Part shown: one piece after another, positions 6,251-64,000 of the stretch
Numbering within the stretch: position 1 is the stretch's first letter
Layout of the letters: each line of letters opens with the position of its first letter
Assembly (NCBI GenBank): GCA_951406725.2
Contig: OX597822.1
Location: 107,508,001 to 107,572,000 of the forward strand
DNA: 64,000 bases
From: Octopus vulgaris
Lineage: Eukaryota
Direction of reading: 5' to 3'
Program-made: the position numbers and the translations under genes
Notes under the pieces: model-generated
What the model saw: the letters and a program-made list of their open reading frames with translations, nothing else
Told to the model about the DNA's origin: nothing
Database searches by the model: none

Positions 6251-7160
6251 TATATACATATAGATATATATATGTATATATATATATATGTATGTATGTA
6301 TATATATATATATATATGCATTACATACATACGTACAGTACATACATATAATTATGTACGTATGTCTATTCATTTATACACGCACTTATACGTGTTTCTC
6401 TGTATGTTTGTATATATGTGTGTGTGTGTCTGTGTGTATGTATGTACAAGCTTATGATTATATACCTATGTCGATATATATATACACGTATATCTTTCTA
6501 TTTAAACGTACACACACATGCGCAGGCCTACTCACACACGTACACAAATATACAAGTGTGTCTGTGTATGTATGTGTGTGTGATCTTCTGTATGTGTGTG
6601 TATGTATTGTATGTATGTGAGTGTGTGCGTGTATGTGTGTTTGCTTTCAGGCACCTAAATAAATAAATAATATATCAACATTATGAATCCGATTGTTATT
6701 ATAAGGAAAAAGAAATTTATGAAACGAGAACATTTTTTTTTTATCGGTTCTCTATTCAAAATTATAACAAGTGAAAGTAAGAAAGTAACGAAATTTAAAT
6801 ATTTTGAATAGCCGTAAACTATGGAACAACGATAAAAACGTGAAGTTAACAGAGAAATTTCTCCAACTCTTTGTGAATAAATAGCGAAACCTAAGTATTT
6901 CGTCACAGGGAATTGGGTGAAAAAAAATTCTAAAAGAAATTACTAAGAAAAGAATAAATAATGGAAGATATATAAATCAACACTTTAGTGAAGAAGCGGA
7001 TTTGGAATGAGAAGGTGAGGCTATGCTGAATACGGAGTAACATTTACTTTGGTACTGTTCAAGAATGGGAATTTCGCGTGACTAAAACCTGATAAAGAGA
7101 CGTACACATACAAGAAAAATTAAAATAGCCTGTGTATATATTAATATATATCTATATCTA

Positions 7161-28189: not shown

Positions 28190-28525
28190 AAAGGTTTCAA
28201 AGTTTGCCACAAGGGTAGGAATTTTGGTGGAGTGTTTAACTGGCGCTTATTTTATCGACCCCGAAATGATGAAGACCACGGCGGAATTTGAACTCAGAAT
28301 GTAACGACGGGTAAAAAAGGATGAAAACTTCGCCAGAATTTGAACTCAGAATATCACGACGGGTAAAAAAGGATGAAGACCACGGCGGAATTTGAACTCA
28401 GAATGTAACGACGGGTTGAAAAAGGATGAAGACTTCGGCAGAATTTGAACTCAGAATATCACGACGGGTAAAATACCGCTAAACATTTCGTCCGGTGTGC
28501 TAAGGATTCTACTAGCTCGCTACCT
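28190..28525 (-). mobile_element. SINE family C copy with internal 4 x 52-bp tandem array
   Basis: Family C motifs on the minus strand; units start at 28268, 28320, 28372 and 28425. Confidence 0.8.
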
Positions 28526-56211: not shown

Positions 56212-59163
56212 GGTCCGCAACTAAATAATATATGCATTCTGATATATGAAGGTGTTCCGTAAATTTTCTCGCTTTAAGGTTATTGCGAAAGGCCTGGGTG
56301 GGTGTTCAACTTTCCGTGTTCTTTTACTGAGCTTAGTAAAACTGAATGTCCACTGCATTAAGTGTGTGAATCTGACAATGGAATATGTTGTATACAATCA
56401 TAATCAACTGACCCTCTTGTATACTTTTGACCCAAAGCTAAGAACTGTTCAGTACTCCTTTGTATGCAGTAAAGATCCCATACGTAGCACCAATCATTCA
56501 GGTCATATTTTTGGTTCACCTCCGCGCTCTCATTGACTACCCAACTTTCAAATTTCGAATGCATCTGACAATTGTCCCTACTACAGAATTTCATACCTAT
56601 TATCCCTTATGAGGCCTGGAAGTTTTCAAAATCTAGACATTTGCAAAATAAAGTTAGTTTTTTAAGAGTTGTTGCTCTTTAAATAAATAAAATTGTTTGC
56701 ATAATACTTCGAGTAGTTTGACGTAAAATGTGATTCTTCCAGTTTTCTTTTTATAAACAGGAACCTGTAGCAACAGTCATCGATTTCTGATTAGTTGGTT
56801 TTTTAATCACCATACTCATAGTAATTAGCAAAGAATTGAGGTTCCAAAGAAACACATTCCGAATTTTCTTTTATTACTCTACCTAAGATGTCTAATGACA
56901 ATTGTGACAACCTAGAAAAACGCTCTGAAATCACACAGGAGATTCGAACTCAAGTCTAACATTTTTCTAATCAGCTACTAGTTCCTGTGGCAATTTTATC
57001 TATCTTACATTAAAAACTCAAAATTCTGCACCCTTAATAATATCCTTAGTTTCCTGGTTTAATCTAAACATCTTGATATCAAGTAGTCAAAAGTACAAAA
57101 TGTACTTATAAGAACTAATAAGATATATATATTAAAATGTCTTACTCGAATCTTGATCAGTCAGTTGTACCTAGCAAAGAACCGACGACAAAACAATGAA
57201 ATTCAATCACAAGGAAACAAAATTGCACCGTCCATTTAAATGAACGTGTATGCATAGTTTTATCTATTCCATCTCACTCCGCGGTACTCAGTGCTGAGTA
57301 ATATATTAGAATCATTAAAACCCGGGAAAAGTATAAATACATAGAGAATGCCAGATTGAATTATAGTAAAGAATAGAAAGATATCTCATCGTTCTCTCTA
57401 GAAAAAAGGCTGGAATTTATAGATTTTCTCACGCTTATGCATCTTAAAATAGGGTTGGTTCTACCTAGTTCGATGTTGAGAATGTCTATATGATGAACAC
57501 ATTTTGGAATATTAAAATCAAATATTTGGAGTAGACAGTTGTAGGCGTTGGATCTTCATTGAAATGCACCACAATGCACGAGTTATTTTTTTATATTTTT
57601 GTGTAACACATATCGAACTTGGTACCAAGACTTAGTTTGCTTGAAACAACGTCACACACACGGCATCTCATAGTCTCGATACGTACGGCCAGTCGTCCAT
57701 AAATTGGATTCCTTTCCCGCAAGATGGAAGAAAAATGCTGACAGGAAAGGACAGATATTCTCTATAAGAGGAGACCTTATAAAGGACTAAATCCAGAGTT
57801 CTACTGGTATGCAAAATACTACATAATGGTCTGTGGATTATATGGTACAATAGCTGGTAAATGGTGCAATTATGTGGACATCTGACAAAAATTTAGGACA
57901 ATGAAGTTAAGAGGACTTGGTATTTGTGCCTGCAATTTTGGAGATGTCTAGCGTCTTAACTTTAGTAAGGAACTCTTTAAAGTAATGATACTTTCTGAAA
58001 AGTTCTTATATAGTACTGAAATACGCTTTTGAGCCATCTATAGCATTTCAGTAAGATATAATTTCTGTTGGGCATAATAAATCTTGTTCTGTATAAGTAT
58101 ACTCTGTTTAAGTATACTCTTCAGCACGCTTGTGTTTAACAATGCTTTTTTATATTTGATGGTGTTTTCACTCAGTTATCAAATGTAATTAGATAGTGTT
58201 TTTGATTTCCTCCTATTACGACGTCCAAAGTAAGTAATATGGTTAACATATCACTGTTTGAACTTGTCCTATACGATTTCGACGAAAGGATTACAAAAAT
58301 TAGATCAGATGTACTTGACGGATTTACATGATGTTTCGTGTGTTATGTTCTTGATAATTGTAATTCAACAAGAATGATTTTAAACTATTTCTATTGAAAC
58401 CTGCACGATATTATGATGCGAAATATCTCTCAAAATATGGCCGGAAGTTTTTATCCTTACTTTATATTTTACGTTTAAGGTATACAAAATTGAAATCAGA
58501 TGATATAGCAGATCTGTAATTTTGGGGTATTAATAAGTTTTACTATTTGATAAAATTCTGTTGTAATGTCAATCTTCTATATCAAAGACATTTCCATCAG
58601 TAGAGGCGCTTAGTAATATTCCAGCTAATGTTCTAAAAGGCCAGTAGTTAAAAACATATGGTATAATCTATTAATTTTTTGTTATCATTTTACTGGAATT
58701 CTTATATACCCCTTTTCATATTATAGTAGAGAAAAGTTAGCAATGATATACGTCATTCTTTCAATAGAGTTGAAGTTTATGGTTTCATTAGTTTATATCT
58801 AAGCCGAGGAATTTACAATGATTAAGTTACTGTCTTTCTTCATTGATAAAACTCCTTATGAAGTTTTCTCTAAATCTCTCAAATTCATGGCCTGCACTGT
58901 GTAATGTAACCGCAAATTCATCTTCTTTGTATCCTAATCTGATGTAGATGAATCTATGTTCTAACATGTCTACTATTACAAAATTTCAGATATATGTGAT
59001 ATCATTATTTTTTCGACGATATCCTATATTTCTGAAACTTCGTAAAACACGTACTGATATCGAATATACCTACTGGTTGTGAACTTTATACAGAGGCTTG
59101 TTCCCTATCAAAAACTGAGTCTTCTTAGACTGTTCGGTAATTTATAAGCTTGTTAACTATAAC

Positions 59164-59480
59164 AAGTGAAGGCGCATGGCTCAGTGGTTAGAGCATCGAG
59201 CTTACGGACCGGGCTGCGTGTTGTGTTCTTGAGCAAGGCACTTTATTTCACGTTGCTCCAGTTCACTCAGCCGTAGAAATGAGTTGCGATGTCACTGGTG
59301 CCAAGCTGTATCGACCTTTGTCTTCCCCTTGGATAACACTGGTGGCGTGGAGAGGGGAGGCTGGTATGCATGGGCGACTACTGGCCTTCCATAAACAACC
59401 TTGCCCGGACTTGTGTCTAGGAGGGTAACTTTCTAGGTGCAATCCCATGGTCATTCATGACCGAAGGGAGTCTTTATCTT
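59164..59480 (+). mobile_element. SINE family M with a 27-nt deletion removing the B box
   Basis: Aligns to 44067-44413; probable TSD CTATAACA. Confidence 0.88.
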
Positions 59481-60894
59481 ATCTATAACATTATAGGTTT
59501 TTGAAAATTGTGGGTACAGTTATGTGGAGGATATGATAAAGAATGGTGAAAATTAGCAGTGTCAAATTGAGTAAATCTAGAGTGCTGTAATCTATATTTA
59601 AATACCAGTTAATCATTTTGTTTGTTGTTCAAAGATGGTAGTCTAGAGCCTCTTCTAAAAATGTTATTTTTTCCGAGTATACCTCACTCAGTAATACTGA
59701 CGTCGCTGGTTTTATTAGGGTTAAGTTCATCTTTATGACCCTTAACGATTTTATAGATGAAAAACAAACCGCTACATCGAAAATTCAACTGACCAACAAA
59801 CTGGCGGAAATAATTTAATTGTGAAGATAATTCTTTAGAAAATTTAATTAAAACTGCTTTATTGAGTTTGACAATGACGGTGCTATTAATATTAAATAAT
59901 ACCATAATTCTTTCATCACATAAAGTTTCTTTATCTCCTACCTTGACTATTTTTATTCTGTTTGTAGGAAGTATAGTAACGATGATTTATTATCTATACA
60001 TGAAAGCGATAAATGTTAACATTACTCGTTCTCAGACAAACAAGTATCTATTTGTGGTAGTAGACACAAATTTTGTATAGTACACACATCGTACACACAC
60101 ACACACTCTTTCTCACACACATATACACACACATTCATACGAGTACGCGCACACACAAACACATACACACACATTTATATATATATATATATATATATAT
60201 AGTGGTACAGTGAAGCCGAAGATACCGAAGGCAAAGTAGTCAACTCCTTGAAATTTCGTTTATAAACACTACTAAACTTGTTTTATATTAATATTTCTTA
60301 CAGTGCAACACCCGCTCAATAATACAGTCCCTCAAGGGTCTATGTCAATGACCCTTTATCTCTCTCTATGTCTCTCTCACTTATTCTCAATCTGTATGTA
60401 TGTATACATAAATACATGTACATGAAGAGAGAGGGAGAGAGAAGGAGAGGGAGAGGGAGAGAGTTAGAGAGATAGAGAGAAAGAGCGTGTGTGCTATGTT
60501 AATGTGTTTAGACGTTGTATTTTTGTAAAAGAAAAGTTTCCAATTGTGCGTGAAAAATAGAAAACAACGTTTCTATTCAGCGGTTCAGGGGTCTAATTAT
60601 ACCGCCCTGGGCATTCGCCGAAGCATCGTTCTTTTATTAATACATTTTCCTATTTTATATGGTCATACTCAATCACTATATTTCTCTGCCTTTGTGTGAA
60701 ATCATCCGTTCATTCTCTCCGTATATAAAAGTATACCTACATTCAGAAGCACACAGATATACTGCATAGTATAAGGTTATAAATAAATGGGATAAATGGA
60801 AAATACGTGACTCTTCCTGGGATATTTATAGTGGATGTGAATCGAACAATTACCTCCGGCTACTGGAATGAAACCAGGTCAAGAACACGATTTT

Positions 60895-60943
<49 letters not shown>

Positions 60944-61439
60944 ATATCTACATCTACTGATGCACGTAGACATACGTAAGCACACACGCACATACACACA
61001 CATACGCGAACAAACACCCTGCCAAATATATCTCTCTCCTCCCCACTCTCCCTCTCTCTCTATACATATATATGCATACATATATATGTGTGTGTATGTG
61101 TGTGTGTGTGTGCGTGTGTGTACGTATATGAATGTGCAGAGTCCTCAGGGAAAATATGTTATTTCTAACTGAATCACGCCAATATTTTTGTCCAGCGTTG
61201 AATTTTGTTTTTATTTATAAATAACAATGTTATCATTATTGTTATTACTCAGTATAACAATGGCAATATTTTAATAACTGGATAATATTAAGAAGGCGAT
61301 CTGCCAGAAACGTTAGCACGCTGCGGTTAATTTGTCTGCGAGAATTTGGTTAGTAATTTTTGTTATTATTTATTGTTATTGTTGCCATTTATTGTTAAAT
61401 TTAGATATTTTGTTAACGTTCTACGTTCTGTTTTAACAG

Positions 61440-62270
61440 ACGGAGTGGAATGTCGTTCCCCTCCTTACTGAGGGGAAGATAATTTTTGAAATAATTTTAA
61501 GAAACATATTTATTTCTGGGAAAATGAATTCGGAGGAGAAGCCTTCTAACCTTGACCAAGCTATTGAAAGAGCAACTGTGAAAGAAGACAAAATGAATGG
61601 AAATGTGAACGAAAGCCACATAAATGCAGTAAACGGAAAAAGGAACCAAGAAGGAAAAATAAATGCTGAAAAAAATAAAATGAATAACAGAAAAGTAAAC
61701 CCAACAGAAGACAACTAAAAGAAGATTAATTTTGCCACCGCAGCCAATGTGAGAAATGATAAATTGAATATAAAGCCAGATTAACAGCGGCAATACAGAG
61801 GTATGTTCGAAAGGGAAGGTTTTGATGTTAAAACCAACCCTCCCTAACGAACTCGCTGAAGAAACAAAGAGGAAAATAATAACATATAAGACAATGAAAA
61901 TAAAAGACAAGAAAATACACAAGGCATCCAAAGAACAAATCGAGAAGCGACTACAACCCATCTGGCAAGACCTCGAGGTCTTGACCAGAGCGAGAGATAC
62001 ACCACAGAAGTGGTGTACTTCAAAAATTAGGAAAATGCTATGAAACACTTCCTTCAACCGCTAAAAACAAATGAAGTTATTTTATTACCAACTTATATAG
62101 GTAGGAGAACATTCAAAATAGTTATTGAGGAAATCCCTCCAGAAACAAATGTCATCTGGATTATCTCAATCCTTCTAATGGGGCTTGAAGAGAAAATCAA
62201 GATGATTGAAGCTTCCAGAATACAACAACAGAACTTAGTGGGCCAAGGGCTAGATATCATAACGCAAGCA
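61440..62270 (+). pseudogene. Probable decayed retrotransposon ORF1-like region
   Basis: Successive same-strand broken ORFs (61524, 61822, 62040) with purine-rich coding-like composition; no diagnostic motif recognised. Confidence 0.35.
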
Positions 62271-62419
62271 GTGTGGCCTTCCTCTCAGTCCCATCTTCTC
62301 ACCCCATTGTGCTGGTGCTGTCCTAAAATCCGAAAAAAATGCTACATTTCCTGTATTCCTCTGTGTAAGAGTGTTCGACCACGGTGCTGTCATCGTGGTG
62401 GTTTTTGTTGTCATTACCA

Positions 62420-62640
62420 TTCAGAGCAAACCCAACGCCAAATTCTCTACGTTGACCCTTAGGTAAGTCTCCCCCAAAGTTAGTATATCCATAAGTAGGT
62501 TCCTAGCTTTATTTATATGACCTTCATCAGAGAGACGAGCTTCAGAGAGCGCAACTATATCAAGGGAATATTTCTCATATTTCTCATAATACATAAATAT
62601 TTTTGAATTAATTTTTACAATCCAGCCGTCCTTGCACACA
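62420..62640 (-). pseudogene. RTE-clade LINE AP-endonuclease N-terminal fragment
   Basis: YSLDIVALSEARLSDEGHI followed, after frameshifts, by GYT...QRREFGVGFAL. Confidence 0.7.
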
Positions 62641-62986
62641 ATATTTCGTCTTTTTCTAAACCTGAAGTGACTTTATATATAAGAGAACTGCGATTATGTA
62701 TATCAGAAAATATACATATATATAGAAGTCGAAACAATTTGTTGGCTTTTTATGGTTTTTAATAATTATTTATGTTATATAATATTATGTTACGTTATAT
62801 TATATTCATAGTATTTAACGTAATATTGTAATATAAATAAATTAATGGACTGTCAAGAGTATATAATTTATCTTTATATGTGTCGTATTTGATTGCGTAT
62901 AAGAAGCACCTTTTCTTTACCCCAAAATTGTTTTAAAAATCCTCGTGCGTTCGATGCACTCAGTGTAGTCTCAAACTCGCGACTAA

Positions 62987-63066
62987 TGGTGAACTATCAC
63001 CTCCGGTATGCTTCTATCGAATGTATTGGTGAATGATCGCCTACGGTATGCTTATATCGAATGTGG
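62987..63066. repeat. Imperfect 2 x 40-bp tandem duplication
   Basis: TGGTGAA...CGGTATGCTT(C/A)TATCGAATGT occurs twice. Confidence 0.8.
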
Positions 63067-63209
63067 ATGCAATAAATTGCTTATAATTACCGGTAATAAC
63101 ATAAAGTTATACAGGTAAGTGGAGGAATTGAAACATTTTTGTGGTAATATATTCTACTGAAGTATAACTTACGCTTATGCACTCGTGCGTCTTATAGGCC
63201 ACAAATCCG

Positions 63210-63270
<61 letters not shown>

Positions 63271-63462
63271 AAATTAGAGAATGGAGAAACATACTTAAAT
63301 CAGTAAAACATCAACTATCTGATGGTACTCAATCCATACTTTAATACACCATTACATATGAGTAAAGGCAATATATAAAATGAAATGAGATATACAGTAA
63401 TAGTAAAAAGATAAAGAGATATAAGTAAAAAATTTCAAATATAATATGCAAATAAATCAAAA

Positions 63463-63570
63463 CTGACAGCTGTTTCGGCAGTGAGGGCAGTCATACCTCA
63501 TTTAACCTATAAGCCATAAAGGCAGGTATAAATGAGGCATTAACAAGGATGCCCCACGGCCTCTTCAGAG
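63463..63570 (-). ncRNA. Type I hammerhead ribozyme with an 85-nt stem II and palindromic stem III
   Basis: Minus strand: CTGAAGA-[GGC...GCC, long hairpin]-GAA-ACAGCTGT-C; C17 = 63465; stem I short (2 bp, 2 mismatches, 2 bp). Confidence 0.78.
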
Positions 63571-63924
63571 AATTAAATTAAATTTGTTATAATAGTGAAA
63601 AATATTATATAATCATATACATATAAATATAAAAATATAAAAATGTAAAATATAAAAACTTATACATCATAATGCTACACTTATATAATATAATACACAT
63701 TTGTACAAAAAAGGAAGGTAAACAGAACAAAATAAAACAAAATATATAACAGTGTATATATTAATATTAATAAGTACCGATATTATGCATATTTGGCTAA
63801 TAGTTTTTTTTATAAAAAAAAAAAAAAAAAAAAAAAAAACTAACACATATGGAGATGAAAAATAATAATTAAAACCATGGTACAGTTCATAAAATTCTAA
63901 AGCTATAAAAGTTAATAAAAATTA

Positions 63925-63932
63925 CTATTAAT

Positions 63933-63996
<64 letters not shown>
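63925..63996. repeat. (AAT)n microsatellite
   Basis: Direct reading. Confidence 0.97.

Positions 63997-64000
<4 letters not shown>

What the first reader, a model, noticed from the sequence alone, without database searches (positions are those of the whole stretch)
63463..63570. Minus-strand hammerhead with an unusually long (85-nt) structured stem II and a dimer-type palindromic stem III
Seen: perfect CUGAAGA and GAAA cores, G10.1-C11.1, and nested helices GGC.GTGGGGCA/TGCCCTCAC.GCC, ATGCCTCATTTA/TAAATGAGGTAT, ACCT/AGGT and GCC/GGC. Stem III ACAGCTGT is an 8-nt palindrome followed by C17. It is a GC-richer island inside an AT-rich element that starts at a (TA)n tract (63270). Established: palindromic stem III marks dimer-acting Penelope-associated hammerheads. 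The long stem II insertion is atypical and could be a protein-binding or regulatory module (inference). Stem I is weak in this copy.
Basis: partly seen in the sequence, partly recalled or inferred. Interest (0 to 1): 0.75.

Follow-up and report, generated by a model that had tools for sequence, protein, structure and literature searches.

The report
Long-armed hammerhead in Hydra-type retrotransposon
This is a hammerhead (self-cutting RNA) motif in the end piece of a young jumping gene with about 1,400 copies; its side arm is over three times longer than published search rules allow and keeps its pairing between subfamilies, and it likely cuts only in pairs, though cutting is untested.

Summary
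Confirmed. The motif (C3 63568, C17 63465, minus strand) is a type I hammerhead with an 85-nt stem II (z -6.6) and an 8-nt palindromic stem III. It lies in a 5'-truncated solo pseudo-LTR of a young Penelope-like element with 1,391 pattern matches. A full partial-tandem copy has two hammerheads 5,579 nt apart around an intact 947-aa ORF that folds like telomerase RT and carries the Hydra-clade marks. Stem II is 81-83% identical between subfamilies (flanks 59-70%), with three compensatory changes, so it is probably under structural selection. Stem I is weak in the whole family (2-3 bp plus AU-rich pairs), not just this copy. The long arm is not unique: 10,677 matches with 40-101-nt stem II (43 in control) occur in many sequence-unrelated families, all beyond the 24-nt published descriptor and missed by Rfam where tested. 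That fits a structural scaffold better than a shared binding module. Cleavage is not shown: copy 5' ends show no spike at the cut, only a ~2.5-fold excess just downstream. The scan already noted long-armed hammerheads of Hydra elements elsewhere in this genome. Verdict: new variant of a known kind.

The parts
63562..63568 (-). Hammerhead core box 1, C3-A9 (CUGAAGA)
   Evidence: part of the family search pattern, so conserved by construction
63477..63561 (-). 85-nt stem II: basal helix closed by G10.1-C11.1, asymmetric internal loop, 12+4-bp middle helix, 4-nt bulge, 3-bp apical hairpin
   Evidence: z -6.6; 97.1% of cells paired, 4 pairs changed on both sides
63473..63476 (-). Core box 2, G12-A15.1 (GAAA)
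63466..63473 (-). Stem III: 8-nt palindrome; +2.4 kcal/mol as a hairpin, -11.1 as a two-molecule duplex
   Evidence: unchanged in 33 of 35 aligned copies
63464..63465 (-). C17 and predicted cleavage site (between 63465 and 63464); cleavage not shown
   Evidence: established hammerhead numbering
63569..63586 (-). Stem I 5' strand: 2 proximal bp (63570-63569) and predicted AU-rich distal pairs
   Evidence: (CG 33 of 35, UA 35 of 35)
63449..63464 (-). Stem I 3' strand: AG, then predicted AU-rich distal pairs whose register differs between subfamilies
63267..64000 (-). 5'-truncated solo pseudo-LTR of a Hydra-clade Penelope-like element (about 800 bp, continues to about window position 64063); no ORF in this copy
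   Evidence: 95.9% identity over 797 nt to the 3' end of the full element in L031; no tblastn hit in the window
63217..63268 (.). (TA)n microsatellite target at the element's 3' end, about 200 nt downstream of the predicted cut

Best explanation
This is the pseudo-LTR hammerhead motif of a young Hydra-clade Penelope-like retrotransposon, here in a truncated solo copy; it likely cuts only as a double hammerhead, and its 85-nt stem II likely serves as a selected folding scaffold rather than a sequence-specific switch. Shown: motif, element anatomy, intact RT/GIY-YIG ORF in a full copy, (TA)n targeting, two fixed 3' ends about 200 and 400 nt past the cut, and preserved pairing of the arm. Inferred: in a transcript of a partial-tandem element the two hammerheads (5.6 kb apart) pair through the palindromic stem III, probably with help from the element's protein as reported for a lizard PLE, and cut a minority of RNAs to unit length or a circle. 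The very stable arm would hold G10.1-C11.1 and the core in place in an AU-rich RNA whose stems I and III cannot stand alone. This solo copy is predicted to be inactive unless it meets a second copy in trans.
For: Full element L031: hammerheads at 6731 and 1152 on one strand around an open 947-aa ORF. AlphaFold model pTM 0.73; top four Foldseek hits are telomerase RTs, E 7e-9 to 3e-8. Hydra marks RWR, DKT, CxCx5C, CxxC/CxH shared with 19 homologues match PMC8557442 section 11. Arm: 97.1% of 1,224 cells paired, 0 of 500 shuffles as high; between subfamilies A and C, 9 changes at paired sites break 0 pairs in two C copies (simulated P 0.008) and 1 pair in a third (P 0.028); stem II identity 81-83% versus 59-70% in flanks in 5 C copies. 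G10.1-C11.1 pairing probability 0.98-0.99 versus 0.001-0.023 for 15.1-16.1 in the two monomers computed. Double hammerhead 12.7-13.8 kcal/mol better than two active monomers in 7 of 7 variants. Long arms of unrelated sequence in many families. Protein dependence of a PLE hammerhead: PMC11167929 passages.
Against: No cleavage data. 1,391 matches carry the ribozyme intact across the cut site, so most templates were uncut or re-ligated. No spike of 5' ends at the cut: 2 of 47 ends in +1..+31 (P 0.45). Even the modelled double hammerhead lies 1.6-9.4 kcal/mol above the free tandem fold. Stem I has only 2-3 proximal bp, below the 3-bp minimum of the published descriptor in subfamily A. Covariation rests on about three events inherited by subfamilies, not on 35 independent sequences, and AT-rich flanks may diverge faster for other reasons. 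The scaffold role is inferred only: a structure-specific protein contact would give the same covariation. Published PLE hammerheads cleave poorly even as dimers (PMC4209133).
Confidence: 0.55

Rival explanations
1. The arm is a binding or packaging site for the element's RT-endonuclease or a host protein that licenses cleavage or selects the RNA as template.
For: Structure conserved; the apical about 40 nt are nearly invariant across subfamilies while the basal helix varies (read by eye, not tested statistically); a sister Hydra-like family at 45% RT identity also has a long, 53-nt arm; the lizard PLE hammerhead needs protein (PMC11167929).
Against: No significant sequence likeness to the sister family's arm (8-35 of 200 shuffles score as high) or to 8 other families; published Hydra elements work with 3-7-bp stems (PMC8557442 File S2); no binding data.
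Confidence: 0.22
2. The arm is a neutral elaboration: loop II is free to grow because it no longer docks on stem I, and any foldable insert is tolerated; pairing is kept only to avoid misfolding of the core.
For: Lengths from 40 to 100 nt with unrelated, sometimes microsatellite-like inserts in other families; no recognisable loop I-loop II contact; PLE hammerheads reported to lack recognisable tertiary contacts in some groups.
Against: In this family the arm is more conserved than its flanks and changes are compensated far from the core; length 85-86 nt in nearly all aligned copies.
Confidence: 0.15
3. The motif no longer cleaves; it is kept as a structural signal for reverse transcription or as a passenger of the pseudo-LTR.
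For: Very weak stems I and III; intact ribozyme in over a thousand copies; in vitro insertion by the lizard PLE did not need cleavage; the 5'-end excess just downstream could be RT stalling at the fold.
Against: CU/AG pairs and the palindrome, which were not fixed by the search pattern, are kept while adjacent sequence diverges right after position 1.2; 5' ends are about 2.5-fold denser at +1..+31 than upstream.
Confidence: 0.08

Closest known systems
Hydra-clade Penelope-like elements and their hammerheads, including Hydra-1_Obim (Craig et al. 2021, PMC8557442; section 11, passages, supplement Files S1 and S2 read)
   Same: C-terminal GIY-YIG, DKT, RW(R/K), CxCx5C linker, CxxC and CxH motifs, (TA)n targeting, type I hammerhead near the 3' end with an ACAG...CTGT-like stem III.
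   Different: Published Hydra hammerheads have 3-7-bp stem II with 3-10-nt loops, stem I of 3 bp or more, and a 1-3-nt loop in stem III; elements are generally under 3 kb. This family has an 85-nt stem II, a 2-3-bp proximal stem I, a loopless palindrome, a 5.6-kb unit, a 947-aa ORF with two Asn-rich inserts and a tail of about 200 nt. Its motif is not in that supplement.
PLE hammerheads of Cervera and De la Pena 2014 (PMC4209133; first half of main text and supplement passages read), especially the D. virilis type with small palindromic helix III and 2-bp helix I
   Same: Position in the pseudo-LTR, palindromic helix III, short helix I, predicted dimer action.
   Different: Their descriptor caps stem II at 7 bp and loop 2 at 10 nt (24 nt in all); 'larger than usual' there means 6-8 bp.
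Spike-moss PLE-X1 hammerheads marked as deviating (PMC8557442 File S2)
   Same: A PLE hammerhead with an enlarged stem II domain (loop 2 of about 30-35 nt).
   Different: Plant, endonuclease-lacking elements; domain about 53 nt at most; no covariation or dimer-type stem III described in the table.
Animal non-LTR retrozymes (PMC7229834 passages; bioRxiv 10.64898/2026.07.22.740005 part 1 and passages)
   Same: Type I hammerhead with weak palindromic helix III acting in tandem.
   Different: Those are short non-coding tandem repeats; this motif belongs to an autonomous coding element.

Membership tests
Type I hammerhead ribozyme | Core CUGANGA ... GAAA ... UH with G10.1-C11.1 and A15.1-U16.1 | tested here: met
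Type I hammerhead ribozyme | Stable closed stem II | tested here: met
Type I hammerhead ribozyme | Stem I of at least 3 bp flanking the cut | tested here: inconclusive
   2 bp in subfamilies A and part of C, 3 bp in B; distal AU-rich pairs predicted in 7 of 7 variants but in shifting register; duplex -2.4 to -7.3 kcal/mol
Type I hammerhead ribozyme | Self-cleavage after C17 | not testable with these tools
   only contigs were available; genomic 5'-end test ambiguous
Type I hammerhead ribozyme | Loop I-loop II tertiary contact of fast natural hammerheads | not tested
   no terminal loop II near the core exists in this fold; no search for an alternative contact was run
Dimer-acting hammerheads | Palindromic, unstable stem III | tested here: met
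   hairpin +2.4, duplex -11.1 kcal/mol
Dimer-acting hammerheads | Second same-strand hammerhead available in one transcript | tested here: inconclusive
   met in partial-tandem copies such as L031 (5,579 nt apart; 4 such pairs among the 100 places listed, counted by eye); not met for the window copy
EN+ Penelope-like elements | Single ORF with telomerase-like RT and C-terminal GIY-YIG endonuclease | tested here: met
   RT by fold; endonuclease by motifs only (VYQ...YIG, R, H, E, N); Pfam, NCBIfam and PDB sequence searches gave no relevant hit
EN+ Penelope-like elements | Partial-tandem pseudo-LTRs, inverted 5'-truncated copies, optional 3' tail | tested here: met
   19 head-to-head pairs among the 100 places listed (counted by eye)
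Hydra clade | DKT, RWK-like, CxCx5C linker, CxxC and CxH around E and N, no CCHH | tested here: met
   (RWR instead of RWK in this family)
Hydra clade | Insertion into (TA)n | tested here: met
Hydra clade | Placement in the Hydra clade on an RT tree with reference elements | not tested
   no tree with the published reference proteins was built
Non-LTR retrozyme | Short non-coding tandem repeat unit | tested here: not met
   unit is 5.6 kb with an intact ORF

The most novel reading that the evidence does not exclude
Long-armed hammerheads are a hidden class of more than 10,000 ribozymes in this genome that published descriptors cannot see, and the arm is the docking site through which the Penelope-like protein switches on an otherwise silent ribozyme and picks its RNA template; retrozyme repeats would have copied the design to hitch-hike.
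Probability: 0.2. Interest if true: 0.68.

Novelty: new variant of a known kind. Interest (0 to 1): 0.42.

Why it matters
The role of hammerheads in Penelope-like elements is an open question (PMC8557442 calls it unclear). This family is young, has an intact ORF, three subfamilies with natural compensatory changes and fixed 3' ends, so it is a ready test system for dimer and protein dependence. It also shows a search bias: the published descriptor stops at a 24-nt stem II domain, yet for the pattern type searched long arms outnumber short ones about 12 to 1 in this genome, so hammerhead counts in such genomes are probably far too low.

Tried and rejected
Rfam: no hammerhead hit on window 58000-64000 and no hit at gathering score in 10 loci, including one with a short canonical motif, so Rfam silence is not specific to long arms. 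Pfam, NCBIfam and PDB sequence searches for the ORF: nothing relevant. Intron hypothesis: a donor-like GAG|GTATGA in stem II exists only in subfamily A, rejected as a family feature. Copies starting exactly at the cut: 6 of 7 hits looked so, but the controlled scan showed no spike. Homology of the arm to the sister family's arm: one alignment scored 2 of 300 shuffles but did not hold up against 25 variants. Neptune or Nematis assignment dropped in favour of Hydra on motifs. Scripts crashed; one search replaced them. Luense et al. 2017 and Arkhipova et al. 2017 are not held and could describe longer stem II variants.

Full report
1. Observation. The motif is as described. C3 is at 63568, G10.1 at 63561, C11.1 at 63477 (stem II 85 nt), the palindrome at 63473-63466, C17 at 63465. 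Stem II folds at -40.7 kcal/mol, z -6.6, with 0 of 200 shuffles as stable. GC is 48% against 23% and 16% in the flanks. Rfam reports no hammerhead here. It is the only match in the window to a relaxed long-arm pattern.

2. The element. A 241-nt search of the own genome (2.8 Gb) gave 1,389 candidates; 18 of the 40 scored full-length matches were 100% identical. A family pattern gave 1,391 matches and 0 for the reversed control. Walking upstream from six long copies gave a complete element in L031: hammerhead, 513 nt, a 947-aa open ORF, about 2 kb of 3' UTR, second hammerhead on the same strand 5,579 nt from the first, then (TA)n. Pfam, NCBIfam and PDB sequence searches gave no relevant hit, but 75 homologues were found, the model has pTM 0.73 and its best structural matches are telomerase RTs. 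The protein shows RWR, DKT, YRDD, a CxCx5C linker, a GIY-YIG-like module and CxxC/CxH motifs, the marks that PMC8557442 section 11 gives for the Hydra clade. No tree was built. In 69 alignment rows from 60 loci (some overlapping) every 3' end fell near +200 (42 rows) or +383 to +415 (27 rows, one of which runs on into the 5' UTR) from the predicted cut, mostly into (TA)n; inverted pairs often carry one end of each kind. This resembles the two RT start sites that define the PLE tail (PMC11167929 passages), with a longer tail. The window copy is an 800-bp 5'-truncated solo pseudo-LTR, window 63267 to about 64063, with (TA)n on both sides and no ORF. The host is octopus-like by inference from genome size, repeats and the scan's notes; I did not establish the species.

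3. Is the arm real? I aligned 35 of the 45 distinct copies held at that point (10 near-identical subfamily A rows left out). 97.1% of 1,224 cells pair, 4 pairs change on both sides, and slid controls pair 26-43%; RNAalifold finds the same arm. The sequences fall into about three subfamilies, so this is about three independent events. Between subfamilies A and C, 9 changes at paired sites break no pair in two C copies (simulated P 0.008) and one pair in a third (P 0.028); A versus B is uninformative (3 changes, P 0.16). Stem II is 81-83% identical where flanks are 59-70% in 5 C copies. The arm is therefore probably selected as a structure.

4. Stems I and III. Only U2.1-A1.1 (35 of 35) and C2.2-G1.2 (33 of 35) are kept; sequence diverges right after position 1.2. 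Distal AU-rich pairs are predicted in 7 of 7 variants but in different registers. Stem III costs +2.4 kcal/mol as a hairpin and gives -11.1 as a duplex; a modelled double hammerhead beats two active monomers by about 13 kcal/mol in 7 of 7 variants, yet stays 1.6-9.4 above the free fold. This fits dimer action with protein help; PMC4209133 reports low activity even for dimers and PMC11167929 reports protein dependence.

5. Is the long arm unusual? Against print, yes: the published descriptor allows stem II of 3-7 bp and loop 2 of 3-10 nt; the Hydra hammerheads in PMC8557442 File S2 fit that range, and only two spike-moss elements have loops of about 30-35 nt. Eight literature searches turned up no description of such long arms in animal PLEs; two relevant papers were not held and one supplementary file of PMC4209133 could not be searched. 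Within this genome, no: one pattern type gave 859 matches with stem II of 9-39 nt (control 61), 8,795 with 40-70 nt (control 23) and 1,882 with 71-101 nt (control 20). The pattern fixes C11.1, a 4-nt loop III and a GUC site, so other short hammerheads are not counted. Of 29 distinct sampled motifs of 40 nt or more, 23 fold with z at or below -2 against mononucleotide shuffles. They include a sister Hydra-like family (RT 45% identical, 53-nt arm) and 535-bp and 594-bp tandem repeats; for most other families no ORF was found nearby. Arms of other families share no significant sequence with this one. Length is shared, sequence is not, which favours a structural role over one conserved binding motif.

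6. Does it cut? Not shown. No RNA run is on record, and contigs cannot show ends. As a genomic proxy I mapped 5' ends of truncated copies. From the first 100 of 134 matches, 53 ends fell between -12 and +31: 2 at +1 (no spike, P 0.45), 6 in -12..-1 and 47 in +1..+31 (P 0.003; 0.017 after merging 8 two-arm junctions). Upstream (-69..-13) there were 41 matches, 38 after merging, in 57 nt; in +50..+95 about 14 true truncations among the first 100 of 179 matches, counted by eye. The density just past the cut is about 2.5-3 times either side. This fits cut templates trimmed on joining, but equally RT stalling at the fold or microhomology with (TA)n; anchors differ between the searches. Most copies carry the ribozyme intact, and L031 is longer than one unit, so templates are mostly uncut or re-ligated circles.

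7. Mechanism. Shown: anatomy, ORF, targeting, arm structure. Inferred: partial-tandem transcript, pairing of two palindromes, protein-assisted cleavage of a minority of RNAs, arm as scaffold (0.55). Rivals: protein-binding module (0.22), neutral growth (0.15), non-cleaving relic (0.08).

8. Papers seen. PMC4209133: parts 1-2 of 4 and supplement passages. PMC8557442: passages, section 11, supplement parts 1-2 and searches. PMC11167929, PMC7229834, PMC13725137, PMC3088659, PMC6765202: passages. bioRxiv 10.64898/2026.07.22.740005: part 1 of 5 and passages; supplements not seen. Luense et al. 2017: citation only. Hammerhead numbering is established knowledge, recalled.

9. Verdict. New variant of a known kind; interest 0.42.

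Noticed in passing
L092-L119 (e.g. G000:C1:180105947-180107390): A 353-bp tandem repeat with a short canonical type I hammerhead and palindromic stem III, probably a non-LTR retrozyme; Rfam missed it at gathering score in the one locus tested.
   Followed up: partly
L153 (535-bp units), L152 (594-bp units), L165:4648: Tandem repeats with 45-70-nt stem II hammerheads whose arm contains GTAAG or GTGAG, the 5' splice-site consensus, in three sequence-unrelated families; enrichment not tested.
   Followed up: no
L129, L242-L266: Very abundant sister Hydra-like family (RT 45% identical to P0001) with a 53-nt covarying stem II and a normal 4-bp stem I; its linker cysteines appear lost in the copies read.
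   Followed up: partly
L267-L296: A 727-aa Hydra-like family with about 60 nearly intact ORFs shows no CUGANGA within 700 nt after the ORF; a possible variant core lies about 50 nt after the stop. Unexplained.
   Followed up: no
L031:5950-6800: Two putative RNA runs show 23 and 25 places with T>C on the plus strand (A>G on the element's sense strand) against 6 in a third and 7 in a DNA-like run; could be A-to-I editing of sense RNA, but alleles and subfamilies look the same.
   Followed up: no
L031:6114-6627: Nine upstream ATGs lie between the predicted cut and the ORF start, and a pyrimidine-rich acceptor-like site ends 4 nt before the start codon; a 5' UTR intron as in other PLEs is possible but no joint was seen.
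   Followed up: partly
window 28264-28473: Four copies of a 52-bp unit (two of 105 bp) with a tRNA B-box-like word (recalled resemblance), possibly SINE-derived.
   Followed up: no
L041:1173-3371: A 733-codon open frame of another non-LTR RT next to an inverted pair of this element.
   Followed up: no
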